Assembly (NCBI GenBank): GCA_964544145.1
Contig: CAZJAT010000005.1
Location: forward strand, 19,882-83,881
Direction of reading: 5' to 3'
DNA length: 64,000 bases
Source: an uncultured Bacteroidales bacterium
Lineage (GTDB): Bacteria; Hydrothermota; 32-111
Positions within the stretch are counted from its first letter, which is position 1, and each line of letters opens with the position of its first letter. A model generated the notes under the pieces. That model was not told the origin of the DNA, made no database searches, and worked only from the letters and a program-made list of their open reading frames with translations. Shown one piece after another: positions 16,197-44,673 of the stretch. Made by a program: the position numbers and the translations under genes.

Positions 16197-16435
16197 TTTT
16201 TGTGACTAAGATGGATATTATTTCAGGTAAGACAGATGAAGCAATTGAATTGGTGAAAACTGTAAAAGCACCTGATAATATAAAAATAAATAATTTTTAT
16301 CAAATGTTCGGTAAACCGGATTTCTACCTTATATTTGAAGCTCCTGATGAAGACAAAGCACTTGATTTTGTGATGCACTACACTTCAGCATTGGACACAT
16401 CTACATCACTAGGTATATCAATAGATGAACTGTAG
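16193..16435 (+). CDS. GYD-domain-like small protein
   Basis: 80 aa; GKPDFYLIFEAPDED resembles the GYD-family core (G.YD...I.E.PD); 4-nt overlap with gcvPA. Confidence 0.4.
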   Translation: MIFVTKMDIISGKTDEAIELVKTVKAPDNIKINNFYQMFGKPDFYLIFEAPDEDKALDFVMHYTSALDTSTSLGISIDEL

Positions 16436-16440
16436 GTTTT

Positions 16441-16956
16441 ATGAATAAAGGTAAAACTCATATATATACCGGTAATGGAAAAGGTAAAACAACGGCAGCT
16501 TTGGGATTAGCAATGAGAGCAGTGGGACATGGCATGAGTGTTATTATGATTCAATTTATGAAGAAAAATGAAATGTATGGTGAATATGCAGTGATGAGTA
16601 AAATTGCTCAAATAGAACAATTCGGCACAAATGAATTTGTCAATCTTGACAATCCAACAGATATTGATATTAGTGAAGCAGAGTCCGGATTAAAATTTGC
16701 TGAAACGATAATTATGGCAGGAACATATGATGTAATTATTCTCGATGAAATACTTGTTGCTGTTTCATTTGGTTTGATACCTGAAGATAGCGTTATTGAA
16801 TTAATGAAATTGTGCAGGGGAAATGCTGAATTGATATTAACAGGCAGGGGTGCAAGTGATGTTATAATTGATGAAGCTGATTTAGTAACTGAAATGTGTG
16901 AAATAAAACATTATTACAGTAAGGGTATAATCGCACGGGAAGGTGTTGAATATTGA
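16441..16956 (+). CDS. cobO: Cob(I)yrinic acid a,c-diamide / cob(I)alamin adenosyltransferase (CobO/CobA/BtuR family)
   Basis: P-loop TGNGKGKTTAALGLAMRAVGHG near the N-terminus, 171 aa, characteristic of the CobA-type ATR. Confidence 0.85.
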   Translation: MNKGKTHIYTGNGKGKTTAALGLAMRAVGHGMSVIMIQFMKKNEMYGEYAVMSKIAQIEQFGTNEFVNLDNPTDIDISEAESGLKFAETIIMAGTYDVIILDEILVAVSFGLIPEDSVIELMKLCRGNAELILTGRGASDVIIDEADLVTEMCEIKHYYSKGIIAREGVEY

Positions 16957-17891
16957 CTGAAAAATTATTAAAAGAATTTATTAGCGGTGATAAAAAAGCT
17001 TTAGCAAGGATTATCACATTGATTGAAAACGAGACATCACAGGGAATAGAATTACTCAGCAATATTTACACTATAGATAAAATGGGATATCGAATAGGAA
17101 TAACCGGTGCTCCGGGTGTAGGGAAGTCAACTACAGTCAATGCTCTGATAGAACAATTTACAGATAAAGAAAGTATTGGTATAATCGCAGTTGACCCTTC
17201 AAGTCCTTTTACAGGAGGGGCAATACTTGGTGATCGACTAAGAATGACAAATAGTTTAAAATATGAAAATGTTTACATACGTTCTGCCGCATCAAGGGGA
17301 TCAATGGGAGGACTTGCTACTTCAACTGAAAGTATAGCAACTGCTATGGAAAAATTCGGCAAATCTACAATATTGATTGAAACAGTCGGTGTAGGGCAGA
17401 GTGAATTGGATGTAATGGAGATTGCGGATACTGTGATAGTCATTTTAGTGCCGGAATCAGGAGATTCAATTCAAGCAATGAAAGCAGGGATAATGGAAAT
17501 AGGAGATATTTTTGTGATAAATAAATCTGACAGAGAAGGTGCAGACCGAGCAGTTCAGTATGTAAAATCAGTATTATCAATGAATGGAAAGAAAAAATGG
17601 AATCCGCCTGTAATTAAGATGAGTGCAAAACAGAACTTGAATGCGGATAAATTAATGGAATCTATTCTAAAACATAAAAAGTATCTTGAAGAGAATAAGT
17701 TGTTTGAAGCTAACAGGGAAAAAAGAAGAAAAAAGGAAATTGAAGAAATTATGAGGGATATGTTCAGCAGAGTAATAAGAAAAAAACTAAATAATTATAA
17801 TTATTCTGAATTTTCCCCCCATAAGATGGCAGAGCAGATTATGAAAAATATTGAAAAAAAAGATATGGAGGAATTATGGAAAAAAGGATAA
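16953..17891 (+). CDS. meaB: Methylmalonyl-CoA mutase-associated G-protein (MeaB/ArgK family metallochaperone)
   Basis: [17 protein letters not shown] Walker A, 312 aa; overlaps cobO by 4 nt. Confidence 0.85.
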
Positions 17892-18277
17892 GGGTACTTA
17901 TCGCTAAACCGGGACTTGACGGGCATGACAGAGGAGCTAAGGTTATTGCGAGAGCATTATCAGATGCAGGAATGGAAGTTATTTATACAGGATTGCACCA
18001 GACACCGGAAAACATTATAAAGACAGCTATTGAAGAAGATGTTGATGTGGTTGGACTGTCAATTCTCTCAGGAGCGCATATGACTATTATCCCTAAAGTC
18101 ATTGAATTATTGAGGGTAGAAGGAAGAGATGATGTATTATTGACAGGCGGAGGAATTATTCCTGAAGATGATATGAAAAAATTGGAACAAATGGGTTCAG
18201 GCAAATTGTTCGGCCCGGGTTCAAAAACGTCTGATATCATTGAATATATAAATGAATGGTATAATAAAAATAAATAA
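17876..18277 (+). CDS. B12-binding small subunit/domain of a methylmalonyl-CoA mutase-type acyl-CoA mutase
   Basis: [23 protein letters not shown]...[10 protein letters not shown] contains the DxHxxG cobalamin-binding motif; 133 aa, as in split archaeal/clostridial MCM small subunits. Confidence 0.8.
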
Positions 18278-23729: not shown

Positions 23730-26700
23730 ATGAATAAAATACCCAAAGCCAAGACTGTAAGAATTGGTTTGAGTTTTGTAAATCCACTTGTAATAATACT
23801 ATCCATTTTATTATCATTTACCTATATTTATGCAGATGATTATGTTCTGAAATCAGGTTGTGAATATGATTATCCGCCTTATTGTTTTGTTAATGAGGAT
23901 TCAATAGCAGATGGGTTTTCTGTAGAACTGCTTCAAGCAGTTATAGATGCGATGAATCTTAAGGTTTCCTTTAAAACATCAAATTGGAATGAATTGAAGA
24001 GTGAATTGGAGCAAGGAAAACTTGATGTGCTTCCCCTTGTGGGAAGAACACCTGAACGTGAGCATTACTTTGATTTTACAATACCCTATTTTCCTATGCA
24101 TGGTGCTATTGTTGTGCGTAAGGATAATCAAAGTATAAAGGTATTAGATGATATTAATGGAAAAAAAATCGCTGTTATGAGCGGGGATAATGCACAGGAA
24201 TTTGTGCAAAGTATTGATATAAATTGTGATATTATCACAACCCCCACATTCAAGGATGCTCTTAAAGATTTATCTGAGGGGAAATATGATGCAGTAATTA
24301 TACAGAGGCTATTAGCGATACAATTAATAAATGAATTAGGTATCAAGAATCTGAGAATTATTGAACCGCCTTTAGTTGAATTTAAGCAGAGTTTCTGTTT
24401 CGCAGTTCATGAAGGCAATAAGGAATTGTTGGCAAAACTTAATGAGGGATTGGCAATTGTTATTGCTGACGGTACTTATAGAATGCTTCACACAAAATGG
24501 TTTGCTTCTATACACTCCATGAAGAATCAGTCAATACTTGTCGGTTGTGATTATAATTATCCCCCATGGGAATTTCTTGATGAAAACGGAAATCCTGCAG
24601 GTTATAATGTTGACCTTACTAAAGCCATTGCCTTGGAAATGAATCTCAATATTGATTTCTATGTTTCTGACTGGGATGATGTTATCATGAGACTTAAAAA
24701 TGGTGACATAGACATTATACAGGGAATGTTCTACTCTGAGGAAAGAGCAAAAGTATTTGATTTGTCAAACCCTCACTTTGTAATCACTCAGACAGCCGTA
24801 ATTAGGGAAGATCATGAGAGAATCAATAGTGAAGAGGAATTACAATACATGACAGTGATTGTAGAAAAAAGCGATATTATGAATGAATATTCATTAAAAC
24901 ATGATATTGACAGTATTATTGAAGTAGAAACAACAGAGGAAGCCCTGCAGCTGCTGTCATTAGGAATCGGAGATTGCGTGCTTATGGGAAGAATACAGGC
25001 TCAGTATTTAATTGACAAAAATGAGTTGACAAATCTGGTAATCAGTGATTTGAGGATTGCATCATATGAATATTGTTATGCTGTATTTAAGGGTGATGAC
25101 AATATGCTGTCCATTTTTGATGAAGGATTGAGATTTATCAAGGAATCTGGCAAATACAGGGAATTACGAAACAAGTGGTTTGGTGTTTATGACAGAGATA
25201 ATTATTTTTCTATAATAAAGAATTCAATTATAATTTTGGTATTATTGATAATAATAATCATTGCAATAATGACTTGGTCATTTTCTCTCAGGCAAATGGT
25301 CCGAAGACGTACCATGGAGCTGGAAGTAGAGATTGATGAGCATAAAAGAGCTGAATCTGCATTAAAGGATGAAGAAAATCTACTTGCAGCTGTTATGAAT
25401 AATATTCCCGTTATGTTGATACAATACAGCAGCAATACTGATATCCGTATTTTAAATAATGAATTTGAGAAAAAGACAGGATGGAAGAATGAGGATTTGC
25501 AGGGCATTGATTTAATGTCTGAATTGTTTCCGGATGATAATTACAGAAGGGATGCAATTAAATATATGAGCAGTACATCGCTGAAATGGAAGGAATTTAC
25601 GCTTTTAACCAGAGATAGAGGGATGATAGATACAGAATGGTGCAGTGTAGAACTAGACAATAATGTGTATATTGGAATTGGGATTGATATCACTGAAAGA
25701 AAGAAGAATGAAGAACAGCTGAGAAAGATCGACAGACTTGATTCTCTTGGAATACTTGCAGGAGGCATTGCCCATGACTTCAATAATCTGCTTACCGGAA
25801 TTATAGGTAATCTCACTTTAATTTACTCAGACATTAAGGGTAAGAGTGAACTGGAGAGTGCTATTGAAGATGCTCTAAAATCATCAAACAGTGCAAGAGA
25901 CTTAACTAAGCAATTGCTTACATTCTCAAGTGGAGGAAGACCTGTAAAGAAAATACTGTTAATGAAAGAGATTATCAAAGATGCAGCTAGATTTGTTATG
26001 AGCGGTTCCAATAATAATTTAATAATGGATATTGCAGATAATTTGTGGAATGCAGAAGCAGATGAGTCGCAGATAAAACAGGTTTTACAAAATATTATAA
26101 TGAATGCCAATCAGTCTATGCCTTCAGGAGGCAATATAGATATATATGCTAAGAATGTGTATTTTGATAAAGTGGATTATCATATAAATAAAGGAAATTA
26201 TATTGAAATATGTATTTCAGATTCAGGTATAGGAATGGAACCGGATTTGATTGCAAAAGTTTTTGATCCATATTTTACAACTAAACAGGGTGGGAGCGGA
26301 TTGGGGCTTGCTATTGTCAGTTCCATTATTAAATCACATTCCGGATATATTGATATTAAGAGTGCTCCCGGAAAGGGTACTGCTGTAACAGTATATTTGC
26401 CGGCAACACTGAAAAGTGCAGATGAAATTGAAGAATTATCTATTATGGATAATACGAAGAGACAAGGACGTATACTCGTAATGGATGATGAGGATATGAT
26501 TTTAAAATTGGTGACAAAAATGCTTACAAGGGCAGGATACAGTGTTGAAACTGCGAAGAATGGGCAGGATGCTATCAATAAATATAGTGAAAGTATGAAT
26601 AATAACCAAAAATTCAATGCTGTTATACTGGATTTGACCATACCGGGGGGTATGGGAGGAAAGGAAACGGCTCAGCATATTCTTGATTTGGACATAAATG

Positions 26701-26849
26701 CCGTTCTTATTGTTTCAAGCGGTTATTCAAGTGATGATACAGTATCAAATTACACTGATTTCGGCTTTAAGGGTATGGTATTAAAACCATATCATATGCA
26801 GGATATGCTCAATGAAATCGAACGAGTACTTTTTAAAGAAAATAAATAA
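23730..26849 (+). CDS. Hybrid sensor histidine kinase/response regulator with two periplasmic solute-binding (SBP_bac_3-like) domains, TM helix, PAS, HisKA, HATPase_c and C-terminal REC domain
   Basis: Signal/TM at N-terminus; two repeats of the D..LL.......N.......W..... SBP pattern; TM IIILVLLIIIIIAIM; H-box GIAHDFNNLLTGIIGN; G-boxes DSGIGME/GGSGLGLA; REC ILVMDDEDMILKL...DLTIPGGMGG...KPY. Confidence 0.85.
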   Translation: MNKIPKAKTVRIGLSFVNPLVIILSILLSFTYIYADDYVLKSGCEYDYPPYCFVNEDSIADGFSVELLQAVIDAMNLKVSFKTSNWNELKSELEQGKLDVLPLVGRTPEREHYFDFTIPYFPMHGAIVVRKDNQSIKVLDDINGKKIAVMSGDNAQEFVQSIDINCDIITTPTFKDALKDLSEGKYDAVIIQRLLAIQLINELGIKNLRIIEPPLVEFKQSFCFAVHEGNKELLAKLNEGLAIVIADGTYRMLHTKWFASIHSMKNQSILVGCDYNYPPWEFLDENGNPAGYNVDLTKAIALEMNLNIDFYVSDWDDVIMRLKNGDIDIIQGMFYSEERAKVFDLSNPHFVITQTAVIREDHERINSEEELQYMTVIVEKSDIMNEYSLKHDIDSIIEVETTEEALQLLSLGIGDCVLMGRIQAQYLIDKNELTNLVISDLRIASYEYCYAVFKGDDNMLSIFDEGLRFIKESGKYRELRNKWFGVYDRDNYFSIIKNSIIILVLLIIIIIAIMTWSFSLRQMVRRRTMELEVEIDEHKRAESALKDEENLLAAVMNNIPVMLIQYSSNTDIRILNNEFEKKTGWKNEDLQGIDLMSELFPDDNYRRDAIKYMSSTSLKWKEFTLLTRDRGMIDTEWCSVELDNNVYIGIGIDITERKKNEEQLRKIDRLDSLGILAGGIAHDFNNLLTGIIGNLTLIYSDIKGKSELESAIEDALKSSNSARDLTKQLLTFSSGGRPVKKILLMKEIIKDAARFVMSGSNNNLIMDIADNLWNAEADESQIKQVLQNIIMNANQSMPSGGNIDIYAKNVYFDKVDYHINKGNYIEICISDSGIGMEPDLIAKVFDPYFTTKQGGSGLGLAIVSSIIKSHSGYIDIKSAPGKGTAVTVYLPATLKSADEIEELSIMDNTKRQGRILVMDDEDMILKLVTKMLTRAGYSVETAKNGQDAINKYSESMNNNQKFNAVILDLTIPGGMGGKETAQHILDLDINAVLIVSSGYSSDDTVSNYTDFGFKGMVLKPYHMQDMLNEIERVLFKENK

Positions 26850-32747: not shown

Positions 32748-33839
32748 CTATAAAGTTATTGGAAAATTCGCACTGATTTGATATGTTAATCCTCCCTTCA
32801 TATATTGATCGGGAGTACCTGAAAATGCAATATCAATTCTGTATCCGCTCATATCGTAACCAATACCCATGGCCAAGCTCACTGCCTCAAGACCGTAAAA
32901 CTCCTTTAATTGAGCCCCGCACCTTATAGAAGGGCTTCCGCTTAAAAGTGATTCTATAAAAGTACCGTCATTAATCTGGCGTTTAATTGTATATTCAATG
33001 CCTGCTTTATACACATATGGTTTATTCGATTGCAAAATTTTATCTACATCAATTGTGATAAACAGTGATTCCATTGCAAGAAAAGATAATCCGGCAGTTG
33101 CTGAAAATGGAATAATCTGCCTGTCATATGAAATGTCATGACCGCTTTTGCTGTCACCTGACCAATATATATGAGTAATAATGTTTTTTAAAGAAAGTCC
33201 CGCTGTCAAACCATTTATTGTGTACAGAAAACCTGCGTCCAAACCATAACCATGGCCATTGGATATATCTGAAAAAGCACTGTCTATCTGTGAAGAATCC
33301 GATGGGTCAGTAAATAAACTTGTTTCAGCGAATCGGCCATTGAGATATTTCAGATTAATACCGAAGAAAACAGGTACATCATACATTGCACCTGCTCCCG
33401 TAAATGTAGTTAGTGTGAGAATATATTCATCAAGGTGCACATCAAAGTCCCTGATTATCATTTCATTTGGGAAATATCTATCTGAGTAAGACACTGAATA
33501 TAGTGGATGGTATGATATACCGCCTTGAAACCCCATTAAAGACATAAATGAAATATGCTTACCATAGATAGAAGGATCTAATTCAAGCAATCGGCTCAAA
33601 TCACTGTTATTTTCATTCGCAAATGATATGTGAAACACATTATTTATAAGAGTAGCAGCCGCAGCGGGATTCCAGAATGCCGCTGCTGGATTATTTGTTA
33701 CAGCAGTACCTGCATCTGCAAGCCCTTTAATCCTGGCAGACGGCTGAGATGAAGGGTATGTTTCAGGTAGTGGAACTTCTAAAGCATAAATAGTAGTAAA
33801 CAATAATCCGAATAATACTAGATTAAATAATTTCATCAA
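32748..33839 (-). CDS. Outer-membrane beta-barrel protein, FadL/TodX/PorV-like
   Basis: Signal peptide MMKLFNLVLFGLLFTTIYA; motif KGLADAGTAVTNNPAAAFWNPAAAA resembles the FadL/PorV N-terminal signature; aromatic-rich strands. Confidence 0.45.
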   Translation of the reverse strand: MMKLFNLVLFGLLFTTIYALEVPLPETYPSSQPSARIKGLADAGTAVTNNPAAAFWNPAAAATLINNVFHISFANENNSDLSRLLELDPSIYGKHISFMSLMGFQGGISYHPLYSVSYSDRYFPNEMIIRDFDVHLDEYILTLTTFTGAGAMYDVPVFFGINLKYLNGRFAETSLFTDPSDSSQIDSAFSDISNGHGYGLDAGFLYTINGLTAGLSLKNIITHIYWSGDSKSGHDISYDRQIIPFSATAGLSFLAMESLFITIDVDKILQSNKPYVYKAGIEYTIKRQINDGTFIESLLSGSPSIRCGAQLKEFYGLEAVSLAMGIGYDMSGYRIDIAFSGTPDQYMKGGLTYQISANFPITL

Positions 33840-34909
33840 TACTCCATAATTGTTTCTTCATTATTAATTACTCTTAATGCACCTAATACCAATGCGAGTA
33901 TTTCATCCTCCCCGGGATATATATGTATATCACCCAGGAATGAGATATGATCAAATATCATATCTGTTAATAAGTCATTATAAGCAATGCCACCTGTTAT
34001 AATAATTGCATCAATATTACCTTTTAGAACAGCAGCCATAGCTCCTGCATATTTTGATACTTGATACATCATTGCACGTAATACCAGCTCAGCATGTTTA
34101 TTCCCTGAATTCATAAGTTCAATTGCTTCCGGAACTGAATCAGTTCGTAAATAGGAATACATTCCTCCCTGTTTTGTCAGGAGGTTTTTCATTTCATCTG
34201 CTGTAAATTTGCCGCTATAGCAGAGTTTCATCAATTGTGTAACAGGTAATCCTGCTGCTCTCTGCGGGGAAAAAGGACCTTCATCATTTGCATTATTAAC
34301 ATCAATCATTAAACCGTTTTTATGAGCAGATACAGAAATACCGGTTCCAAGGTGAATTATTATCAATGAAGAGGTATTGTAATTATTATCATTCTCCTTA
34401 GCCCATTTTTTCCCTACCATTTTCATATTCAATGCATGGGAGAGCGATTTGCGCTCAATAAGATTTAATCCTGAAATGCGGGACACGTCTTCAAATTCAT
34501 CGACTGATACAGGATCAACAATGAATTTTAATTTGTCCCCAGCAAGTTTGTCAGCAATCAAACATCCTAAATTAGAAACATGGTCAGCAAGCACATTCCC
34601 TGACAATACGTCATTTATCATTTTAGTGTTAATAGCATATGTGCCGGACTTTAATGGTTTAAATGGTCCACCTCTTGCAACAAATACATCAATATCATCA
34701 ATTGATATATTATTATCCTTTAATGTACTTAGTATTATTTTGATGCGCATATCGAGCTGATCTGTTGTTGTCTTAAAATTCTGTATATCATCTTTGTAAT
34801 GTTCTACACTTTTGCTGAATATCTCATCTTCATTATCATATAATCCGATTTTTGATGATGTTGCTCCAGGATTAATTGCTAGAATTTTCATAATATTCTT
34901 CTCCATCAA
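33836..34909 (-). CDS. buk: Butyrate kinase (ASKHA superfamily acyl-kinase)
   Basis: MKILAINPGATSSKIGLY, IIHLGTGISVSAHKNG, GGIAYN...; 357 aa; no adjacent ptb. Confidence 0.85.
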   Translation of the reverse strand: MMEKNIMKILAINPGATSSKIGLYDNEDEIFSKSVEHYKDDIQNFKTTTDQLDMRIKIILSTLKDNNISIDDIDVFVARGGPFKPLKSGTYAINTKMINDVLSGNVLADHVSNLGCLIADKLAGDKLKFIVDPVSVDEFEDVSRISGLNLIERKSLSHALNMKMVGKKWAKENDNNYNTSSLIIIHLGTGISVSAHKNGLMIDVNNANDEGPFSPQRAAGLPVTQLMKLCYSGKFTADEMKNLLTKQGGMYSYLRTDSVPEAIELMNSGNKHAELVLRAMMYQVSKYAGAMAAVLKGNIDAIIITGGIAYNDLLTDMIFDHISFLGDIHIYPGEDEILALVLGALRVINNEETIMEY

Positions 34910-36247
34910 TTATTGGTTACTGTTATTATTATTATTATTATTATTATTTATTGTTTCATTATTGGCCGAATGATCATTTGTTTCAGGGATTGTATTGAAT
35001 TTATTTTTATTGATAGGTTTATCCTCTGTATTACTGCCTGTGTTGTGATGCTCCGAATCAGGTTTAATATTGTTTTTAATGTTCATTCTTAACCGGCTCA
35101 TTTCAACTATCTTGATGGCTTTCATAACCGTATGCATGTCAATCATTATATTATTATACTGCATTATGCCTGTTCCCTGATCCTTTGTTTCTTTATATAA
35201 TGCAACAATCTCCTTCGCTATATTCAGCTCTTCCGGATGTGGCGAAAATATATCATGAATGATATTTATATGTGAAGGATTTGACAATAATTTGCCGTCA
35301 AACCCCATAGCCTTGATGCGCCTACAAATCTTTTTAAAGCCTTCAATGTCTTCTGTGCCGCTGTATATGCAGTCCAATGCCTGCTTACTGAAGCTTTTAG
35401 CAGCATTAATAAGGGTTTTACGTGCATGATCTAATTCATATTCTCTGTCAGTAACTCTTATTCCAAGTGAAGCAGCATAATTGTCGGCCCCTAAAGCAAG
35501 CATTATAACTCTGTCATTTGAATTAGCAATCTCATAAGATTTTTCAATTCCTTTAGCACTTTCTATTATTGGTATTATCTTTACATAATTATGTTTCATT
35601 TGATACTTTTTTTCTGTTTTTTCTATTATGTCAGCAACTTTTTTTACATCATATTCACTCTCACATTTAGGGATTAATATACCATCAGGTTCAGACTGGA
35701 GAATTTCCTCAATATCTTCATTGCCGCATATATCCAATGTATTTATTCTGACCATTTTTTCAGAACTTCCAAAATCAATTGACTGCAGGGCATTTTTTAC
35801 AAGAATTCGTGCACTATCCTTTTCTTTAATAGAAACTGTGCTTTCCAAATCAAAAATTATACAATCAGGATTATATTTCACGATATTACTCATAAGATAG
35901 GGATTGTTCCCTGTTATTAATACGCAGCTGCGTCTTAATCGGTACTTATAATAGGGCTTTTCCATATAATACTTTTTTTCCATTTCCTGTGATGCTTTCA
36001 TTATCGCGGATTCCACTCTTGCCTTTACGACAAACTCAGCAGCACTATTATCAAGAATATCGAACTTAGCATTTATAATTCCATACATATTAATTATTGC
36101 ATTTATAGTTTCGGCAATTCTACTGTAAGCTGATTCACCTTCAATAGATGAAATATTTACTGTTAAGCCGCCTGATGATGGTTCAACAGAGACCCTGATA
36201 TCACCTTTCTCATTATTTCCTGTTACGGCTTTTCTTTTAATTTCCAT
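34910..36247 (-). CDS. Fusion of a citrate-lyase acyl-carrier (CitD-like, prosthetic-group Ser replaced by Lys) with a citrate lyase beta/citryl-CoA lyase (CitE, HpcH/HpaI family) domain; poly-Asn C-terminal tail
   Basis: N-terminal KAVTGNNEKGDIRVSVEPSSGGLTVNISS (cf. CitD AVAGTLESGDVMIRIAP...LQINSS). Then RRSCVLITGNNP...IIFDLESTV...ARILV...GFDGKLL collinear with CitE. Tail NNETINNNNNNNNNSNQ. Confidence 0.75.
   Translation of the reverse strand: MEIKRKAVTGNNEKGDIRVSVEPSSGGLTVNISSIEGESAYSRIAETINAIINMYGIINAKFDILDNSAAEFVVKARVESAIMKASQEMEKKYYMEKPYYKYRLRRSCVLITGNNPYLMSNIVKYNPDCIIFDLESTVSIKEKDSARILVKNALQSIDFGSSEKMVRINTLDICGNEDIEEILQSEPDGILIPKCESEYDVKKVADIIEKTEKKYQMKHNYVKIIPIIESAKGIEKSYEIANSNDRVIMLALGADNYAASLGIRVTDREYELDHARKTLINAAKSFSKQALDCIYSGTEDIEGFKKICRRIKAMGFDGKLLSNPSHINIIHDIFSPHPEELNIAKEIVALYKETKDQGTGIMQYNNIMIDMHTVMKAIKIVEMSRLRMNIKNNIKPDSEHHNTGSNTEDKPINKNKFNTIPETNDHSANNETINNNNNNNNNSNQ
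34919..34947. repeat. Trinucleotide microsatellite (TTA)8-9 (AAT on the coding strand) encoding the poly-Asn tail of the CitDE fusion
   Basis: ttattattattattattattattatt run at ~34921-34944, directly seen. Confidence 0.8.
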
Positions 36248-39287: not shown

Positions 39288-39478
39288 TTTTTTCTATCCT
39301 CAATCAGTTTTTTTAAGCTTCTGTCATAAGTAAGTTCTGCTTCAGTACTAAAAAAACATGCAGGGAATTCATTCATTGAATTATGATATTCAATACATTC
39401 CTTGCAATTACCATGTCTTTTACAGCTTCTGTATGTGCAGGGGCATTTAGTATTAATGTTTTCCATTACTATGCTCAT
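39284..39478 (-). CDS. Small cysteine-rich protein (CPCx4Cx2HGxCx2C, 'cysteine-rich small domain'-like)
   Basis: KCPCTYRSCKRHGNCKECIEYH...ACFF; 64 aa; overlaps the methyltransferase gene by 4 nt. Confidence 0.4.
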   Translation of the reverse strand: MSIVMENINTKCPCTYRSCKRHGNCKECIEYHNSMNEFPACFFSTEAELTYDRSLKKLIEDRKN

Positions 39479-39930
39479 AAAAAGTAAAAAATAAATCCTA
39501 TTCCTGCATTAAAATCCAGAGAAGTAGCAGGAATAACATCTAATATGGGTGAGCATTCAATGAACAGTTCAATAGGAATGTCAGGGAATTGCAATCCTGC
39601 TCCTGCAGTAAATTTTACTCCCACATTGGTGTTATTGTTTGTTTTGATTCTGATTCCCGGTCCTGTATAGAAAAAAAGAGGTAATGTGATTTCTCCATCA
39701 TCGCTTTTCACGGAATAATAGAAATTGTAAGAATAACCAAAACTTCCGTAAACCATACTAGCCGGAATATCCCACGCAATAATCGAATTAATGCTGTTAT
39801 TCTGATTGAGATTCACTTTTAATTTTATGCCTGTTGGATTACCTGCATAAATGCCTGCCCCGAAATGATTGGATGCATGCGATGTTAAAAAGACAATTAG
39901 AGAGAGGATGATGATTACAGCTCGTTTCAT
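39475..39930 (-). CDS. Small outer-membrane beta-barrel-like protein with signal peptide
   Basis: MKRAVIIILSLIVFLTSHA; Gly/aromatic-rich alternating strands; C-terminal FIFYFL. Confidence 0.4.
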   Translation of the reverse strand: MKRAVIIILSLIVFLTSHASNHFGAGIYAGNPTGIKLKVNLNQNNSINSIIAWDIPASMVYGSFGYSYNFYYSVKSDDGEITLPLFFYTGPGIRIKTNNNTNVGVKFTAGAGLQFPDIPIELFIECSPILDVIPATSLDFNAGIGFIFYFL

Positions 39931-42900
39931 TATTTTAACTCCATTTTGCTATTTATTTGTTCCAGAATTGAATCACAGAATGTAATAATGTTTTTTTTAT
40001 CAATATCATGTGCAATTGTCAGAGCTTCATTGGCAAATTTTATCGCGCTCCCGAATTCATTCATAATCATTTTCAATTCAGCTCTTTTTGAAAGAAAATG
40101 GGAGAGAGGGAATCTTGCATTCATTTTTCTAATAATGGATATGCATTTTGCAAAATATTTATCAGCCTCACTATTTTTTCTCTGAAGTTTGTACAGTTCT
40201 GCCATATTGCCTAAATCAATTGCTTCAGACCACTTATTACCAATTTGTCTATCAATAATAAGAGCATCTTTATAATATTTCAAGGATTTTGCGTATTGAC
40301 CTTCTGTTGCATAGAAATTTGCAATATTGCCAAGTACTATTGTCTCATTTTCAAGATTGTTAACATCCTTATCAATTTCAAGAGCTTTAAAATAATATTC
40401 TAAAACTCTATCTTTCTCGCCCATATCATTGTACACTTGTCCCATATTACCAAGCACAATGGCTTCTGATCTCCTGTTACCGATTTTCCTGTTTATTCTG
40501 AGGGAAATGCTGTTATGATGTATACTCTGTTTAAATGACTCGCTGTTTCTATATATCAAACCGATACGCAGATGAAGTTTTGCCTGAGAGTTCAAATCAT
40601 TGCTTTTTTCAGCATCTTTCAGCGCTCTTTGATAATATTTCATTGCTCTCTGGTCATCACCCTGTCTGTAGAGCACTAAACCCATATTGGAAAATATGGA
40701 GTTTCTCAGTTTTCTGTTTTTTTCTGCATATTTCAATGCATTATTAAACTGTATTATTGCTTCATTAAAATCACCCTTATTATAATAGACAAGTCCCATA
40801 AGTTCGTAGATTTTACTCATTCCCTCAATATCATTTTTCTTTTTGTAAAGGTTAAATGAGCTGTTATACTGAACAATTGCTTTCTTATATTTACCAAGCG
40901 ACCAGTATATTTCTCCAAGTGTTTTATAGGCATTTGCACATAAAAGAATATTTCTCTTGCATAAACGAATAGCTTTTTGAAGCACCTTTACACCCTCATC
41001 ATAGTTGGCAGTGTGCAGCATAATATTGCCGAGATTGATATATGCATGAGCTTGCTGTGATTTTGAAATGTCAAGTTTCAGTAATTCATATATAAGTTTG
41101 ATGGCAATTTCATTCGAGTATGTGCTCATGTATCGTTCAATTGCCAATTTTAAATAGTGCATCTTTTTATTCTTAATATTTGCCTGTTTATAGTGATAGT
41201 ATAATATCTCATAATATGGGCTAAGATCATTGCTGTATTGCTTTTCATAAAGCGAGGCAATCCGAGAATGCAGTTTTTTCAATTCATCTTCAAACTGCAT
41301 CTTATAGGCAATCTCATGTAATAATGTATGTCTGAAAACACCAAGATTTTTCGAAATAACAGATATAATTTTATTCCTTTCTCCCTCAGTGAGGATTTTC
41401 CCGATATTCTTTCCAACAAGTAAATTCAACAGAATTATTTCAAACTCTTTCCCGAAAACCGATGCTTTCTTTATTCCTTCTCTTGTAACAGCTGATAAAG
41501 AGTCCAGCCGTGATACAATTAATCTGTCAATGCTTGACGGTAATTCATAATCCGCTTTGGATAAATTAATTGAATTGCCATTATGCTCAATTAAATCATT
41601 GTTGGCAAGATGTATTGTGATTTGCTCAAGGAACAAAGGATTGCCTTCAGATTTTTCCCATAATAACTGAAGTAAGGTATCTGATGGTTTTTTTTCAAAA
41701 AAAGCAGTAATAAATAATTTTACTCCTTTAAAATTGAAATTATTCAATGGAATACTTATATGCTTCAAACGAATTCTGTCCGTTACGCGATTCTTCTCTC
41801 TGAAAACAATAATAAGACCTGCATTTAATATGTTATCCTGGAAAGCGTAGTTGAGAAAATCTATGGTTTCCTCATCTGCCCACATCATATCGTCAAATAC
41901 AAATATCTGTCTTCTCAGACTGCATTCTTTAATTAATATTTGGCGAATAATGTAGAATGTGGTTTCCTGCATTTCCTTTCCTGATATATGTTTTAATATA
42001 CCCTCATCTGCTAGTGAAAAAAAGTGATGTATGTATTTGGAATATGTCTCATACTGTTCACTGAAATGTGATGCAAGATATTTATCAGCTTTTGATTTCT
42101 TTCTATCCCTGTCATCATAGTATCCAAAGTCCATTATTGATGCTATGACTTGTTTGATAGGTGACATAGGTTCAAACAAAACTGAATCACATAAACCGTA
42201 ATGAAATAATATTTTACTGTTTTGTAATGTATGGTATACAATGCGGGTTTTCCCGATACCGCTTTCACCCTCAATATAAATGATTGGGGATTTACTTTTT
42301 TTAAATGTATTTTCAATATAAGTTATTATCCTATTTTGTTCATTTTCCCTTGATACGAAAGGAGAAGCAAAATCAATAACCCTGTTTTTCTTGGATTCAA
42401 TACTATATAGACTGATTTTTTTCTTTTTTCCCTTTACATTGAAATAATTCTCAAATGCAAATTCAAATGTTCTGCTCTCCTGTTTAACACGTTCACTTAT
42501 ATATATTTTCCCTTTGCTAAGACATGATATCCTTGATGCAGTATTGACTATATCACCAAGAACAGTATATTCCATCCAATTTTTACTCCCAATAAAACCT
42601 GTATAGGATATACCATAATCAATGCCTGCTGAAATATTCAAATGTTTAAATTCATCTCCAATCTTTACAGCCATATTCAAGGCATTTTCAATCATATTTT
42701 CTGATGCAAATGGAGCACCGAATATTACAAGTATGATTCCGCCTTTTTCTGTAAAATCAACCTTATTGAAATATCCGTTCATTTCAATGGAATATTCCAT
42801 TATACTTGTTATAAGTCTATTCAGCTCATTTCTCTCAATATCATTGCTGAAATTAAAGAAGAGAGGGACAGTTTTTCTGAACTCACCCTTTATGCTGAGT

Positions 42901-43553
42901 TCACTCAGGATATCGGGAAAGAAATCCTTGTTGAATTTTGAAGAAGGTATTTTTGTTTTTGCTTTTTTATTTTTTTTAGTAATGTTCAAATCAACTGTAA
43001 GAATATTATTCATTTTTTTATAGGGTATGAGAGATTTCTTAAGCTGAGGAAGGATTTGTGTATCCAGACAGACAGTATCCGGTTTTGCATGCTGCTGAAT
43101 CTTTATTGCATCTCTTATCCCACTGCCTTTAAAATAATATGTTTTAAATATACTGGATATTATTTCCCATTGAATATCGCCCTTAGCAATCCCCAATCGT
43201 ATATGCATTTTATTTTCAGTATTTTCGTTGAATCTCTTGAATGTTTGAATAATATTGCTGCCTATTTCAATGATTTGCTCAATACTGTCTGTAAAGCGAA
43301 ATACTGCTGTAAATGCATCTCCTGCAAAATTGGTTATAAATCCGTTATTGGTATATACAATATCAGTAATTTCACCGAATGTCTGGTTAAGAATATAACC
43401 GGTTTTTTCGGCGCCCGTTTTACCTTCACTGAGTAATTGTTCCAATAGGGGAGTGAAATTACAAATATCACAAGAAATAACATATGCATCGGATGTTCCA
43501 AAATCATTATTTATGTGTTCCTGTATAAAACCAGGTATGAGATTTTTTTTCAT
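39930..43553 (-). CDS. Multidomain signalling protein: tandem class III adenylate/guanylate cyclase homology domains (complementary pseudo-heterodimer) + STAND/AAA+ NTPase + C-terminal TPR array
   Basis: CHD1 ~aa 18-160 (VISCDICNFT, NFAGDAFTAVF, LGIAKGDIQWE). CHD2 ~aa 215-345 (LVIFGAPF, GFIGSKNWMEYTVLGDIVNTASRIS). Walker A IEGESGIGKTRIV, Walker B VFDDMMWAD. More than 8 TPR-like repeats (YYNKGDFNEA, LGNMGQVYNDMGEKD...). Confidence 0.8.
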   Translation of the reverse strand: MKKNLIPGFIQEHINNDFGTSDAYVISCDICNFTPLLEQLLSEGKTGAEKTGYILNQTFGEITDIVYTNNGFITNFAGDAFTAVFRFTDSIEQIIEIGSNIIQTFKRFNENTENKMHIRLGIAKGDIQWEIISSIFKTYYFKGSGIRDAIKIQQHAKPDTVCLDTQILPQLKKSLIPYKKMNNILTVDLNITKKNKKAKTKIPSSKFNKDFFPDILSELSIKGEFRKTVPLFFNFSNDIERNELNRLITSIMEYSIEMNGYFNKVDFTEKGGIILVIFGAPFASENMIENALNMAVKIGDEFKHLNISAGIDYGISYTGFIGSKNWMEYTVLGDIVNTASRISCLSKGKIYISERVKQESRTFEFAFENYFNVKGKKKKISLYSIESKKNRVIDFASPFVSRENEQNRIITYIENTFKKSKSPIIYIEGESGIGKTRIVYHTLQNSKILFHYGLCDSVLFEPMSPIKQVIASIMDFGYYDDRDRKKSKADKYLASHFSEQYETYSKYIHHFFSLADEGILKHISGKEMQETTFYIIRQILIKECSLRRQIFVFDDMMWADEETIDFLNYAFQDNILNAGLIIVFREKNRVTDRIRLKHISIPLNNFNFKGVKLFITAFFEKKPSDTLLQLLWEKSEGNPLFLEQITIHLANNDLIEHNGNSINLSKADYELPSSIDRLIVSRLDSLSAVTREGIKKASVFGKEFEIILLNLLVGKNIGKILTEGERNKIISVISKNLGVFRHTLLHEIAYKMQFEDELKKLHSRIASLYEKQYSNDLSPYYEILYYHYKQANIKNKKMHYLKLAIERYMSTYSNEIAIKLIYELLKLDISKSQQAHAYINLGNIMLHTANYDEGVKVLQKAIRLCKRNILLCANAYKTLGEIYWSLGKYKKAIVQYNSSFNLYKKKNDIEGMSKIYELMGLVYYNKGDFNEAIIQFNNALKYAEKNRKLRNSIFSNMGLVLYRQGDDQRAMKYYQRALKDAEKSNDLNSQAKLHLRIGLIYRNSESFKQSIHHNSISLRINRKIGNRRSEAIVLGNMGQVYNDMGEKDRVLEYYFKALEIDKDVNNLENETIVLGNIANFYATEGQYAKSLKYYKDALIIDRQIGNKWSEAIDLGNMAELYKLQRKNSEADKYFAKCISIIRKMNARFPLSHFLSKRAELKMIMNEFGSAIKFANEALTIAHDIDKKNIITFCDSILEQINSKMELK

Positions 43554-43587
43554 TAAAAAAATGGGGAGCTAAAAGCTCCCCTGTGAA

Positions 43588-44673
43588 TTATTTAGCTATT
43601 GCCGGAATTACTTGGTTTATATCAATCTGATGTTCACTTCCATCCTCAAATACGGCAATCATATATGATTTGTATGCAGGGTTCAACAGGTTGTTCGGAT
43701 CCCATATTACACCCTCAAGGTCAGCTGCATGAACACCGTCTTTGGTTAATTCTCCAGTAAATTCAATCTTGGTATATTCGATTGTCTGTCCACCATAAGG
43801 TCCATCAACATATTCGGGGTCTTCAGTATCAATGTCAATCTTCCATCCAGTATCATATTCAACAACAAGATTGACAGTCTCGTCTCCGGTTGATGTTATT
43901 GTGTATTCAACCCATTCATCATTGATTTCATCCTCTACACGGAAATTTGCTTCATCAACAACAAGCACATAATCATCAATGGGATCATCTTCTGTATGTC
44001 CTTCATATCCGATTGTAATGTTGTATTCATCTGTGACGCCCCATGTTACTGATAGGTCAATGGGTACATATTCATCATAGCCGAATTCATCAGTTTCTGT
44101 TGTGAATTCTGCATCAAATGTGATGTATACAAGCTCAGTATCATCAATGGAAAGTGTTATATCAACTGTATTCGGTGTTTCCTCATCAGGGTCGCCTGCA
44201 TAGTATGTAATACGGTCAAAGAGCAATTCGACGGAGTGTTCTTCATTGTCAATTGATGTGTCAATAAATGACCAGATGAAAAGGTATCCATCTGTAGGAT
44301 ATGAATCATCTGTCAGGATGAAATTGTATGATGTAGAATCATATTCATAGGTTCCGTATACAGTATCAAGAAGTAATTTCGTATCCATATCACCGTTCAT
44401 GAGATTGAATGGTATAAGATAATCTGCAGCTGTGCCGCCTTTGGAAAAGAAGTCAGTTGCAGCAGCCATAGCTAGCTCTGTATTCTCACCCTCAATATCA
44501 TTTACACCTGCATTTACATCATCCTCAAAAGTATCAAGGAAATCCTCGATTTCTGTTTGTGTTACATCCTGAGGCAGAAGAAAACAAGATGAAATTGAAA
44601 ATACAAAAATAAGCAGTACTGCCATTAGAATGATTTGAGTTCTTTTCATATAATACCTCCTAATTATATTCAT
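43588..44673 (-). CDS. Hypothetical acidic (Asp/Glu/Thr-rich) secreted lipoprotein
   Basis: Signal peptide plus ...FSISSCF lipobox-like; highly acidic body; no recognisable domain. Confidence 0.45.
   Translation of the reverse strand: MNIIRRYYMKRTQIILMAVLLIFVFSISSCFLLPQDVTQTEIEDFLDTFEDDVNAGVNDIEGENTELAMAAATDFFSKGGTAADYLIPFNLMNGDMDTKLLLDTVYGTYEYDSTSYNFILTDDSYPTDGYLFIWSFIDTSIDNEEHSVELLFDRITYYAGDPDEETPNTVDITLSIDDTELVYITFDAEFTTETDEFGYDEYVPIDLSVTWGVTDEYNITIGYEGHTEDDPIDDYVLVVDEANFRVEDEINDEWVEYTITSTGDETVNLVVEYDTGWKIDIDTEDPEYVDGPYGGQTIEYTKIEFTGELTKDGVHAADLEGVIWDPNNLLNPAYKSYMIAVFEDGSEHQIDINQVIPAIAK

What the first reader, a model, noticed from the sequence alone, without database searches (positions are those of the whole stretch)
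39930..43553. 1207-aa protein: complementary tandem cyclase domains (one composite active site) fused to a STAND NTPase and TPR array
By motif alignment, CHD1 keeps both metal-binding Asp (SCDICNFT, NFAGDAF) but has a degenerate transition-state Asn/Arg block (GSGIRDAIK). CHD2 lacks the second metal Asp (KGGIILVIFGAP instead of GDA...GAP) but keeps GDIVNTASRI. This is the same division of labour as mammalian AC C1/C2, so the two domains probably form an intramolecular pseudo-heterodimer with one catalytic site. They are followed by a P-loop NTPase (GESGIGKT / DDMMWAD) and at least 8 TPR repeats. This effector + STAND ATPase + TPR-sensor layout is used by signalling ATPases (mycobacterial AC-ATPase proteins) and by antiviral STAND (Avs) defence proteins. 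Here the effector would be a cNMP-synthesising cyclase instead of a nuclease, which is a possibly novel sensor-coupled second-messenger generator. Note that the locus is chromosomal and not flanked by obvious defence genes.
Basis: partly seen in the sequence, partly recalled or inferred. Interest (0 to 1): 0.65.

Follow-up and report, generated by a model that had tools for sequence, protein, structure and literature searches.

The report
Bacterial soluble-adenylyl-cyclase-like STAND–TPR enzyme
This gene encodes a bacterial relative of the animal "soluble adenylyl cyclase": two unequal cyclase halves form one cAMP-making site and are fused to an ATP-switch and a repeat sensor, a layout already described in bacteria and animals, so it is a real but ordinary member of a known family.

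Summary
ORF 39930-43553 (-) encodes 1207 aa. It has two cyclase homology domains (each passes Pfam's threshold alone), an AAA_16/STAND NTPase and about 8-11 TPR-like repeats.

The split of catalytic residues is real and conserved. C1 keeps both metal Asp (D29, D79; 109/110 and 110/110 homologues). C2 has none, but keeps Lys264, Thr330, Asn337 and Arg341.

The layout is not new. Sequence, family-profile and AlphaFold/Foldseek comparisons all put human soluble adenylyl cyclase (ADCY10) first, with C1 matching C1 and C2 matching C2. Full-length sAC carries the same P-loop/STAND plus TPR tail. The bacterial version has been described for Leptospira LA_4008 and Myxococcales orthologues.

The family is large: at least 510 loci in species-representative genomes across many phyla. 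Here it sits in syntenic housekeeping DNA of a probable WOR-3-like bacterium (inferred from the names of the nearest homologues). It has no family-wide partner gene, no phage copies and no Avs match.

Best reading: a cytosolic class IIIb adenylyl cyclase gated by a STAND/TPR sensor whose ligand is unknown. The defence reading is unsupported. Verdict: new member of a known kind, low interest.

The parts
39930..43553 (-). Whole gene: 1207-aa C1-C2-STAND-TPR cyclase
   Evidence: ORF list. Domain hits. 136 homologues of the same length and domain set.
42984..43502 (-). CHD1 / C1 (about residues 18-190). It carries both metal-binding Asp (D29 = 43467-43469, D79 = 43317-43319) and the pyrophosphate-contacting basic residue R119. 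Its Asn/Arg block is degenerate (R147...K151).
   Evidence: PF00211 36.5 bits alone. phmmer aligns residues 22-191 to human sAC C1 residues 40-217, with D29~D47 and D79~D99. D29 is kept in 109/110 homologues, D79 in 110/110, and position 119 is K or R in 105/110.
42390..42887 (-). CHD2 / C2 (about residues 223-388). It has no metal Asp (N234, G272). It keeps K264 (42762-42764), T330 (42564-42566), N337 (42543-42545) and R341 (42531-42533).
   Evidence: PF00211 42.1 bits alone. phmmer aligns it to human sAC C2 residues 323-423, with K264~K334, T330~T405, N337~N412 and R341~R416. N337 is kept in 107/110 homologues, R341 in 108/110, T330 in 81/110 (plus 11 Ser), and K264 in 53/110 (plus 15 Arg). 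The seven most frequent residues printed at the two Asp-equivalent positions include no Asp.
41274..42362 (-). STAND NTPase module (about residues 398-760). Walker A is GESGIGKT 429-436 (42246-42269). Walker B is IFVFDDMMWAD, residues 550-560 (41874-41906). Other motifs are sensor Arg R585, the GNP motif 637-639, and a winged-helix region containing FRHTLLHEIAY.
   Evidence: AAA_16 49.2 bits; NB-ARC 20.3 bits, below threshold. Invariant or nearly invariant across the family: G432, G434, K435, D555, D560, R585 and G637-N638-P639. AF2 model pLDDT 93.4. The top PDB fold hit is 6mfv, a STAND protein with a TPR sensor, E 8.8e-17.
39936..41273 (-). Helical-repeat / TPR array (about residues 761-1206). 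There are 23 helices, and about 8 canonical TPRs of 40-aa period lie between about 830 and 1150.
   Evidence: TPR_12 2e-40 in 4 stretches, TPR_1 and TPR_2 in 5 stretches each, TPR_8 in 7. Helix list of the model. LGN/Pins-type TPR fold hits.
43554..43581 (-). Terminator-like hairpin (GGGGAGC-TTTTA-GCTCCCC plus a T-run) that ends one base before the cyclase ATG. Its link to the cyclase's expression is inferred, not shown.
   Evidence: Scan and sequence. The same arrangement occurs in relatives L001, L003, L004 and L006, and 4 of 8 pairs show changes on both sides.

Best explanation
The gene encodes a cytosolic, sAC-type (class IIIb) adenylyl cyclase.

Catalytic core. The two cyclase homology domains fold onto each other within one chain and form a single composite active site. 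C1 gives the two metal-binding Asp (D29, D79) and the pyrophosphate-contacting basic residue (R119). C2 gives the base-recognising Lys264 and Thr330 and the transition-state Asn337 and Arg341. The pseudo-symmetric second site is degenerate.

Regulation. The product is most likely cAMP. Output is set by the C-terminal STAND module, a nucleotide-bound switch (Walker A, Walker B and sensor Arg are intact). That switch is coupled to a TPR array, which binds an as yet unknown ligand or partner protein. The active site is already complete in one chain, so the STAND/TPR part probably acts by autoinhibition and its relief, or by assembly into oligomers. It probably does not act by bringing two catalytic halves together.

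What is shown and what is inferred. Shown: the domain set, the residue split and its conservation, the fold match to sAC, the family size and the genomic context. Inferred: the product, the on/off mechanism and the ligand.
For: - Both CHDs pass Pfam's threshold on their own.
- Single-sequence phmmer puts human sAC first and pairs C1 with C1 and C2 with C2.
- The family profile hits ADCY10 at E 3e-61 in one collinear stretch covering both domains. The next cyclase scores about 91 bits.
- The AF2 model of residues 1-400 has pLDDT 94 and pTM 0.92. Its top 24 PDB hits are all human sAC cores (E about 1e-29, TMq 0.80-0.84), followed by AC9 C1/C2.
- The residue mapping agrees with the published functional table of human sAC: D47, D99, K144, K334, N412, R416 (PMC12867704) and T405 (PMC12250328).
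- Across 110 homologues the C1 Asp pair and the C2 Asn/Arg are nearly invariant, while the C1 Asn/Arg positions and the C2 Asp positions are not conserved.
- STAND evidence: AAA_16 above threshold, invariant Walker and sensor residues, and 6mfv as the best fold match.
- A eukaryotic sAC-family protein (Protostelium) aligns collinearly through C2 and the whole NTPase module at E 2e-29.
- Thr in place of Asp is the class IIIb signature shared with sAC (PMC2613629).
Against: - No enzyme assay exists for this protein or its close relatives.
- Lys264 is kept in only 53/110 homologues (plus 15 Arg), so base specificity may vary across the family.
- From background knowledge, the sAC-related Dictyostelium sGC makes cGMP. 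Family membership therefore does not fix the product.
- The bicarbonate-binding residues of human sAC are absent (N75 for K95; I150/K151 for R176). Bicarbonate control of the sAC kind cannot be assumed.
- Even for mammalian full-length sAC no regulator acting through the STAND domain has been found (PMC12802110). The switch mechanism is therefore an analogy with other STAND proteins.
- Model coordinates could not be inspected, so distances in the active site were not measured.
Confidence: 0.8

Rival explanations
1. An Avs-like antiviral STAND sensor. The TPR array recognises a phage protein, the NTPase module oligomerises, and the cyclase makes a cyclic nucleotide as an immune signal.
For: The general layout of effector + STAND + TPR is shared with Avs proteins. 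Avs3 appears among the fold hits, though only at rank 46 with E 2.9e-9. There are weak PADLOC matches to Pycsar cyclase models, best E 1e-6.
Against: - No Avs model matches. The PycC hits are partial and weak, as expected for any CHD.
- The neighbours are housekeeping genes: ValRS, PFK, a glycosyltransferase, citrate-lyase-like and glycine-cleavage genes.
- Gene order is conserved with relatives whose cyclase is only about 45% identical. This points to vertical descent rather than a variable island.
- No cNMP-responsive effector or any other partner is conserved next to the gene across 80 loci.
- No copy was found in 50,697 phage records.
- The closest characterised relatives are signalling enzymes.
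Confidence: 0.04
2. A nucleotide cyclase with another product (cGMP, or a pyrimidine cNMP) rather than cAMP.
For: Position 264 varies across the family: K 53, R 15, E 10, G 10. From background knowledge, the sAC-related Dictyostelium sGC is a guanylyl cyclase. Rv0386 uses an unusual mode of substrate selection (title of Castro et al. 2005, cited in PMC3789758).
Against: This protein itself has the Lys/Thr pair that human sAC uses for adenine (PMC12867704, PMC12250328). It has no Glu/Cys-type guanine pair. The Pycsar models match only weakly.
Confidence: 0.1
3. A catalytically dead pseudo-cyclase that only binds nucleotide, like the class III cyclase-like ATP-binding protein of Pseudomonas (PDB 6yii).
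For: 6yii is among the two-domain fold hits, with E 2e-13 and TMq 0.60. One of the two pseudo-symmetric sites is clearly degenerate.
Against: All residues of one complete active site are present and nearly invariant in the family. That argues for selection on catalysis. The match to sAC is much better than the match to 6yii.
Confidence: 0.04
4. An exported host-directed cAMP-raising factor, as proposed for Leptospira LA_4008.
For: It has the same domain architecture as LA_4008 (PMC3789758).
Against: The N-terminus runs straight into the cyclase domain: residues 8-12 are helical and the first strand starts at residue 18 in the model. No signal-peptide predictor was run. The nearest named homologues come from environmental, uncultivated lineages such as WOR-3 and Cloacimonetes. 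The family is spread over many free-living phyla.
Confidence: 0.02

Closest known systems
Eukaryotic soluble adenylyl cyclase (sAC, ADCY10), full-length isoform
   Same: - Same order of parts: C1, C2, a P-loop/STAND module, then TPRs (PMC10668965, PMC12802110).
- Same split of catalytic residues: C1 holds D47/D99/K144, and C2 holds K334/T405/N412/R416.
- It is the best sequence, profile and fold match, and the match is collinear.
- A protist member aligns through the NTPase module as well.
   Different: - About 20% identity in the core.
- This protein is about 400 residues shorter than the 187-kDa mammalian protein.
- The bicarbonate-binding Lys95/Arg176 are not kept (N75; I150/K151). They are also missing in most non-mammalian sACs (PMC12867704).
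- The heme domain and autoinhibitory motif reported for sAC were not looked for here.
Leptospira interrogans LA_4008 and Myxococcales orthologues (MXAN_4545, STAUR_4866, COCOR_04748)
   Same: [quoted passage not shown] That is the same architecture in bacteria. Leptospiria and Spirochaetales loci are among the relatives found here.
   Different: LA_4008 was proposed to act on host cells from culture supernatant. The present protein is from a probable free-living WOR-3-like bacterium. No direct sequence comparison with LA_4008 was made.
Mycobacterium tuberculosis Rv0386-type cyclases and rhizobial/Cupriavidus plasmid-borne cyclase-ATPases
   Same: A class III cyclase domain is followed by an AAA_16/STAND NTPase and helical repeats. 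Plasmid-borne relatives align to residues ~220-827, that is C2 plus the NTPase module.
   Different: They have a single CHD, so they must pair as homodimers to build active sites. From background knowledge, Rv0386 also ends in a LuxR-type HTH. No such domain is detected here.
PH0952 (PDB 6mfv) and MalT/AfsR-type STAND regulators with TPR sensors
   Same: The NTPase + helical + winged-helix + TPR sensor fold is shared. 6mfv is the best PDB match to residues 395-1207. There is a TPR_MalT hit below threshold, and AfsR appears among the profile hits.
   Different: Their effector parts are DNA-binding domains or are absent, not a cyclase.
Avs antiviral STAND proteins / Pycsar cyclases
   Same: Generic effector-STAND-TPR logic (Avs), and a class III cyclase fold (PycC).
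   Different: No Avs HMM hit, and only weak partial PycC hits. There is no adjacent effector, no defence-island context and no phage copies.

Membership tests
sAC-type tandem-CHD cyclase with STAND-TPR tail (ADCY10 / LA_4008 kind) | Two class III cyclase homology domains in one chain | tested here: met
   Each half passes the PF00211 gathering score alone: 36.5 and 42.1 bits against 21.9.
sAC-type tandem-CHD cyclase with STAND-TPR tail (ADCY10 / LA_4008 kind) | C1 carries both metal Asp and C2 carries none | tested here: met
   D29~D47 and D79~D99. C2 has N234 and G272 at the equivalent positions. The seven most frequent residues printed at those columns include no Asp.
sAC-type tandem-CHD cyclase with STAND-TPR tail (ADCY10 / LA_4008 kind) | C2 carries Lys, Thr (the class IIIb signature), Asn and Arg | tested here: met
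   K264~K334, T330~T405, N337~N412 and R341~R416. The class IIIb definition is in PMC2613629.
sAC-type tandem-CHD cyclase with STAND-TPR tail (ADCY10 / LA_4008 kind) | Intramolecular head-to-tail C1:C2 pseudo-heterodimer like the sAC core | tested here: met
   AF2 pLDDT 94 and pTM 0.92. The top 24 Foldseek PDB hits are sAC, with TMq 0.80-0.84. This rests on a prediction, not on an experimental structure.
sAC-type tandem-CHD cyclase with STAND-TPR tail (ADCY10 / LA_4008 kind) | P-loop/STAND NTPase directly after C2, followed by TPRs | tested here: met
   AAA_16 above threshold. TPR families. Fold match to 6mfv. Collinear alignment to a eukaryotic sAC-family protein through the NTPase module.
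sAC-type tandem-CHD cyclase with STAND-TPR tail (ADCY10 / LA_4008 kind) | Direct homology of the tail to that of human full-length ADCY10 | tested here: inconclusive
   Only fragments of ADCY10 came back from the protein database, and the AFDB library was unavailable. The link rests on the Protostelium homologue and on the published domain descriptions.
Mammalian bicarbonate-activated sAC (functional subclass) | Bicarbonate-binding Lys95 and Arg176 | tested here: not met
   N75 aligns with K95, and I150 (K151 next to it) aligns with R176. Across the family Lys occurs at position 75 in only 5/110.
sAC-type tandem-CHD cyclase with STAND-TPR tail (ADCY10 / LA_4008 kind) | Adenylyl cyclase activity | not testable with these tools
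   Needs an enzyme assay.
Avs (antiviral STAND) defence proteins | Match to Avs family models | tested here: not met
   PADLOC returns only TPR and weak PycC models.
Avs (antiviral STAND) defence proteins | Location in variable defence islands or mobile DNA | tested here: not met
   Housekeeping neighbours. Gene order is conserved with relatives whose cyclase is about 45% identical. No phage hits.
Avs (antiviral STAND) defence proteins | Activation by a phage protein; protection from phage | not testable with these tools
   Needs phage challenge experiments.
Pycsar | Cyclase gene next to a cNMP-activated effector gene | tested here: not met
   The window neighbours have no such domain. No neighbour family recurs across phyla in 80 loci.
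Rv0386-type mycobacterial cyclase-ATPase | Single CHD acting as a homodimer, with a C-terminal LuxR-type HTH | tested here: not met
   Two CHDs. No HTH/GerE family appears among the 25 listed of 30 Pfam hits.

The most novel reading that the evidence does not exclude
The STAND-TPR tail senses an invading or foreign protein (for example a phage component) and switches on cAMP synthesis as an alarm. That would make this widespread family a cyclase-armed branch of the antiviral STAND proteins. By descent, it would hint at an immune origin for animal soluble adenylyl cyclase.
Probability: 0.04. Interest if true: 0.8.

Novelty: new member of a known kind. Interest (0 to 1): 0.25.

Why it matters
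The finding itself is modest. It adds a member from a probable WOR-3 lineage to a family whose layout is already in the literature.

Its practical value is indirect. What the STAND-TPR tail of soluble adenylyl cyclase does is still unknown, even in mammals. Purified full-length sAC showed no isoform-specific regulator (PMC12802110). Compact bacterial homologues such as this one give very confident structure models for both halves (pLDDT 93-94). They could serve as tractable systems to find the ligand and the switching mechanism.

The family-wide conservation pattern also gives a clean natural example of one composite active site being kept while its pseudo-symmetric twin decays.

Tried and rejected
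- Defence system. PADLOC gave no Avs hit and only weak PycC hits. The context is housekeeping and syntenic. The neighbour clustering of 80 loci found only lineage-specific synteny and adjacent paralogues, with no effector. There was no phage match. Rejected as the main reading.
- Functional operon with the flanking unknown ORFs. The 361-aa upstream and 151-aa downstream ORFs are conserved only in the closest clade (L001-L006) and absent from the other 76 loci. They are treated as neighbours, not as parts.
- Recent internal duplication. CHD1 and CHD2 show no significant BLAST similarity to each other. Each pairs with its own sAC counterpart, so the duplication is ancient.
- Direct comparison with the full-length human ADCY10 tail. 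The database search with a human C1 fragment returned only fragments. The afdb50 fold library was not available. A single-sequence PDB search with the NTPase region found nothing.
- Papers by Kobayashi et al. 2004 and Kleinboelting et al. 2014 are not held. Their content is cited only through papers that quote them (PMC11006738, PMC3085406, PMC12867704). Two literature searches found nothing useful.
- Other copies in the window: none.


Full report
**Observation.** The minus-strand ORF 39930..43553 encodes 1207 aa.
- SCDICNFT 27-34
- NFAGDAF 75-81
- GSGIRDAIK 143-151
- GGIILVIFGAP 271-281
- EYTVLGDIVNTASRI 328-342
- GESGIGKT 429-436
- DDMMWAD 554-560

Pfam reports Guanylate_cyc in two stretches, AAA_16 (398-574) and a long series of TPR families over about 830-1150. 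Scanned separately, CHD1 (36.5 bits) and CHD2 (42.1 bits) each pass the 21.9-bit gathering score. The central region passes AAA_16 (49.2 against 32.6) and gives a sub-threshold NB-ARC hit.

**What the catalytic part is.** A plain phmmer search of the PDB with either half puts human soluble adenylyl cyclase (sAC, ADCY10) first, and the pairing is like with like. CHD1 (22-191) aligns to sAC C1 (40-217), with almost no score on C2. CHD2 aligns to sAC C2 (323-423), with only a trace on C1.

A profile of 92 family members hits ADCY10 at E 3e-61. This is one collinear stretch covering both domains (profile 19-402 against sAC 36-471). The next cyclase, CyaC, scores about 91 bits.

An AlphaFold2 model of residues 1-400 is very confident (pLDDT 94.0, pTM 0.92). 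Its first 24 Foldseek hits in the PDB are all human sAC cores (E about 1e-29, TMq 0.80-0.84 over both domains). The C1/C2 pair of membrane AC9 comes next. The two domains are therefore predicted to form a sAC-like intramolecular pseudo-heterodimer.

**Catalytic residues.** I used the phmmer alignments and the published functional tables of human sAC (PMC12867704 Table 1; PMC12250328). The mapping is:

| This protein | Human sAC | Role |
|---|---|---|
| D29 (C1) | D47 | metal binding |
| D79 (C1) | D99 | metal binding |
| R119 (C1) | K144 | pyrophosphate contact |
| K264 (C2) | K334 | base recognition |
| T330 (C2) | T405 | base recognition |
| N337 (C2) | N412 | transition state |
| R341 (C2) | R416 | alpha-phosphate contact |

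- C2 has N234 and G272 where a self-sufficient domain would have the two Asp.
- C1 has R147...K151 where Asn...Arg would be.
- In 110 homologues aligned over the N-terminal region, these counts hold:
  - D29 is kept in 109 and D79 in 110.
  - Position 119 is K or R in 105.
  - N337 is kept in 107 and R341 in 108.
  - T330 is kept in 81 (plus 11 Ser).
  - K264 is kept in 53 (plus 15 Arg).
- The C1 Asn/Arg positions and the C2 Asp positions vary. The residues printed at the C2 Asp positions include no Asp.
- Exactly one composite site is therefore under selection.
- Thr in place of the substrate Asp is the class IIIb signature that sAC shares (PMC2613629).
- The bicarbonate-binding pair of human sAC is not kept (N75 for K95; I150/K151 for R176). 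Across the family Lys occurs at position 75 in only 5 of 110. The same loss is reported for most non-mammalian sACs (PMC12867704).
- CHD1 and CHD2 have no detectable BLAST similarity to each other, so the duplication is old.

**The tail.** An AlphaFold2 model of residues 395-1207 is also confident (pLDDT 93.4, pTM 0.87). It shows a P-loop alpha/beta domain, a helical domain, a winged-helix region and then 23 helices of repeats.

The best PDB match is 6mfv, the STAND protein PH0952 with a TPR sensor (E 8.8e-17 over 747 columns). LGN/Pins-type TPRs follow. Avs3 appears only at rank 46.

Family-invariant or nearly invariant residues include Walker A G432/G434/K435, Walker B D555 and D560, a sensor Arg (R585) and a GNP motif (637-639). 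The nucleotide switch therefore looks functional.

**Family and context.**
- The protein database gives 136 relatives at E <= 1e-10. Almost all are 1200-1400 aa with the same domain set. Those named come from WOR-3, Cloacimonetes, Atribacteria, Chloroflexi, Calditrichaeota and others.
- A near-identical copy differs by one residue, M116L.
The 80 best loci kept match across nearly the whole two-domain region. They come from Saprospiraceae, Spirochaetales/Leptospiria, Gemmatimonadota, Anaerolineae, Acidobacteriota, Cloacimonadota and WOR-3.
- The nearest named homologues suggest the source is a WOR-3-like bacterium. This was not tested directly.
- The neighbours in the window are ordinary chromosomal genes. 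They include valyl-tRNA synthetase, phosphofructokinase, a GT4 glycosyltransferase, a methyltransferase, a citrate-lyase-like protein, glycine-cleavage proteins, RNase E/G and MgsA.
- The order unknown 361-aa ORF, cyclase, methyltransferase, PFK, GT4, citE recurs in relatives whose cyclase is only about 45% identical. None of these neighbours recurs in the other 76 loci.
- An all-against-all clustering of neighbours finds only lineage-specific synteny and, in 7 loci, a second adjacent paralogue.
- There is no phage copy. Plasmid and chromid hits are single-CHD relatives that align only from residue ~220 onward.
- PADLOC gives no Avs match and only weak, partial PycC matches.

**Comparison with what is known.**
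[quoted passage not shown] The mammalian tail is referred to as a predicted STAND domain (PMC12802110, citing Leipe 2004 and Danot 2009).
- Bicarbonate-responsive sAC-like cyclases from Chloroflexus are also on record (PMC11006738 and PMC2613629, citing Kobayashi 2004, which I could not read).
- An amoebozoan protein (Protostelium nocturnum) matches human sAC at E 1e-33. It aligns collinearly with residues 223-793 of this protein, that is C2 plus the whole NTPase module, at E 2e-29. Homology to eukaryotic sAC-family proteins therefore extends beyond the catalytic core.
- I could not obtain full-length human ADCY10 for a direct test.

**Mechanism.**
- Most likely (confidence about 0.8): this is a cytosolic class IIIb adenylyl cyclase with one intramolecular C1:C2 active site. 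Its output is gated by the STAND nucleotide switch in response to something bound by the TPR array.
- The site is complete within one chain, unlike in single-CHD relatives such as Rv0386. The tail therefore probably works through autoinhibition and its relief, or through higher-order assembly. This is inference by analogy with sAC (whose full-length form is less active, PMC12802110) and with other STAND proteins.
- The product (cAMP) is inferred from the Lys/Thr pair. It is not certain, because position 264 varies in the family and a sAC-related guanylyl cyclase exists in Dictyostelium (background knowledge).
- Rivals are an Avs-like immune sensor (about 0.04), another product (about 0.1), a dead nucleotide-binding pseudo-cyclase like 6yii (about 0.04) and an exported host-directed factor like LA_4008 (about 0.02).

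**Verdict.** The claim of novelty and the defence analogy are not supported. This is a new member of a known kind, the bacterial sAC-like C1-C2-STAND-TPR cyclases. Interest is low (0.25). The main value is as a tractable model for the still unexplained tail of soluble adenylyl cyclase.

**Side observation.** A strong terminator-like hairpin with a T-run (43581-43554) ends one base before the cyclase ATG. The same arrangement, with different stem sequences and changes on both sides in 4 of 8 pairs, is present in four relatives. How the cyclase is transcribed and translated past it is unexplained.

Noticed in passing
window 43554-43581 (- strand); also L001 ~5958-6000, L003 ~5955-5997, L004 ~1220-1263, L006 ~564-605: A terminator-like hairpin (G-rich 7-9 bp stem plus a T-run) lies between the upstream ORF and the cyclase. 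It ends 1 nt before the cyclase ATG, leaving no room for a ribosome-binding site or promoter. The arrangement is conserved in four relatives with different stem sequences, and 4 of 8 pairs have changes on both sides. It may mean expression by read-through or some form of attenuation. Unexplained.
   Followed up: partly
window 43588-44673 (-): A 361-aa acidic ORF with an N-terminal hydrophobic stretch ending in Cys (lipoprotein-like by eye) and no Pfam match. A homologue (37-58% identity) sits directly upstream of the cyclase in L001-L004 and L006, but not in more distant family loci.
   Followed up: partly
window 39475-39930 (-): A 151-aa ORF with a signal-peptide-like N-terminus and no Pfam match. 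Its ATG overlaps the cyclase stop codon by one base (TAATG), which suggests translational coupling. It is present at 54-57% identity in L005 and L006 and absent from L001-L004.
   Followed up: partly
loci L022, L026, L027, L032, L045, L076, L082; L008/L018/L046: Seven of 80 genome loci carry a second family paralogue next to the first. One Gemmatimonadetes MAG (J002) has at least three separate loci. This is a lineage-specific expansion of the family.
   Followed up: no
plasmid hits H1-H12, e.g. NZ_CP012032.1 Leptospira borgpetersenii 16165-18051: Relatives on plasmids and chromids of Rhizobium, Sinorhizobium, Cupriavidus, Burkholderia and Leptospira align only to residues ~220-827. These are single-CHD plus STAND forms that lack the C1 half.
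   Followed up: no
window 23730-26849 (+): A 1039-aa hybrid sensor kinase with two periplasmic SBP_bac_3 solute-binding domains, HisKA, HATPase_c and a receiver domain.
   Followed up: no
window 58285-60483 (-): A 732-aa protein with an N-terminal patatin-like phospholipase domain. The rest of the protein has no Pfam match at E <= 1e-5.
   Followed up: no
window 33836-36247 (-) versus L001 12720-15651: In relatives L001 and L002 a citF gene (515 aa) lies between the ACP-CitE fusion gene and the acetate-kinase-like gene. In the window the acetate-kinase-like ORF (33836-34909) follows the ACP-CitE gene (34910-36247) directly, so citF appears to be missing here.
   Followed up: no
window 43206-43208 (codon 116 of the cyclase): The only database copy of this protein (P0001, a 7.2-kb Logan contig) differs from it by a single residue, M116L.
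   Followed up: yes
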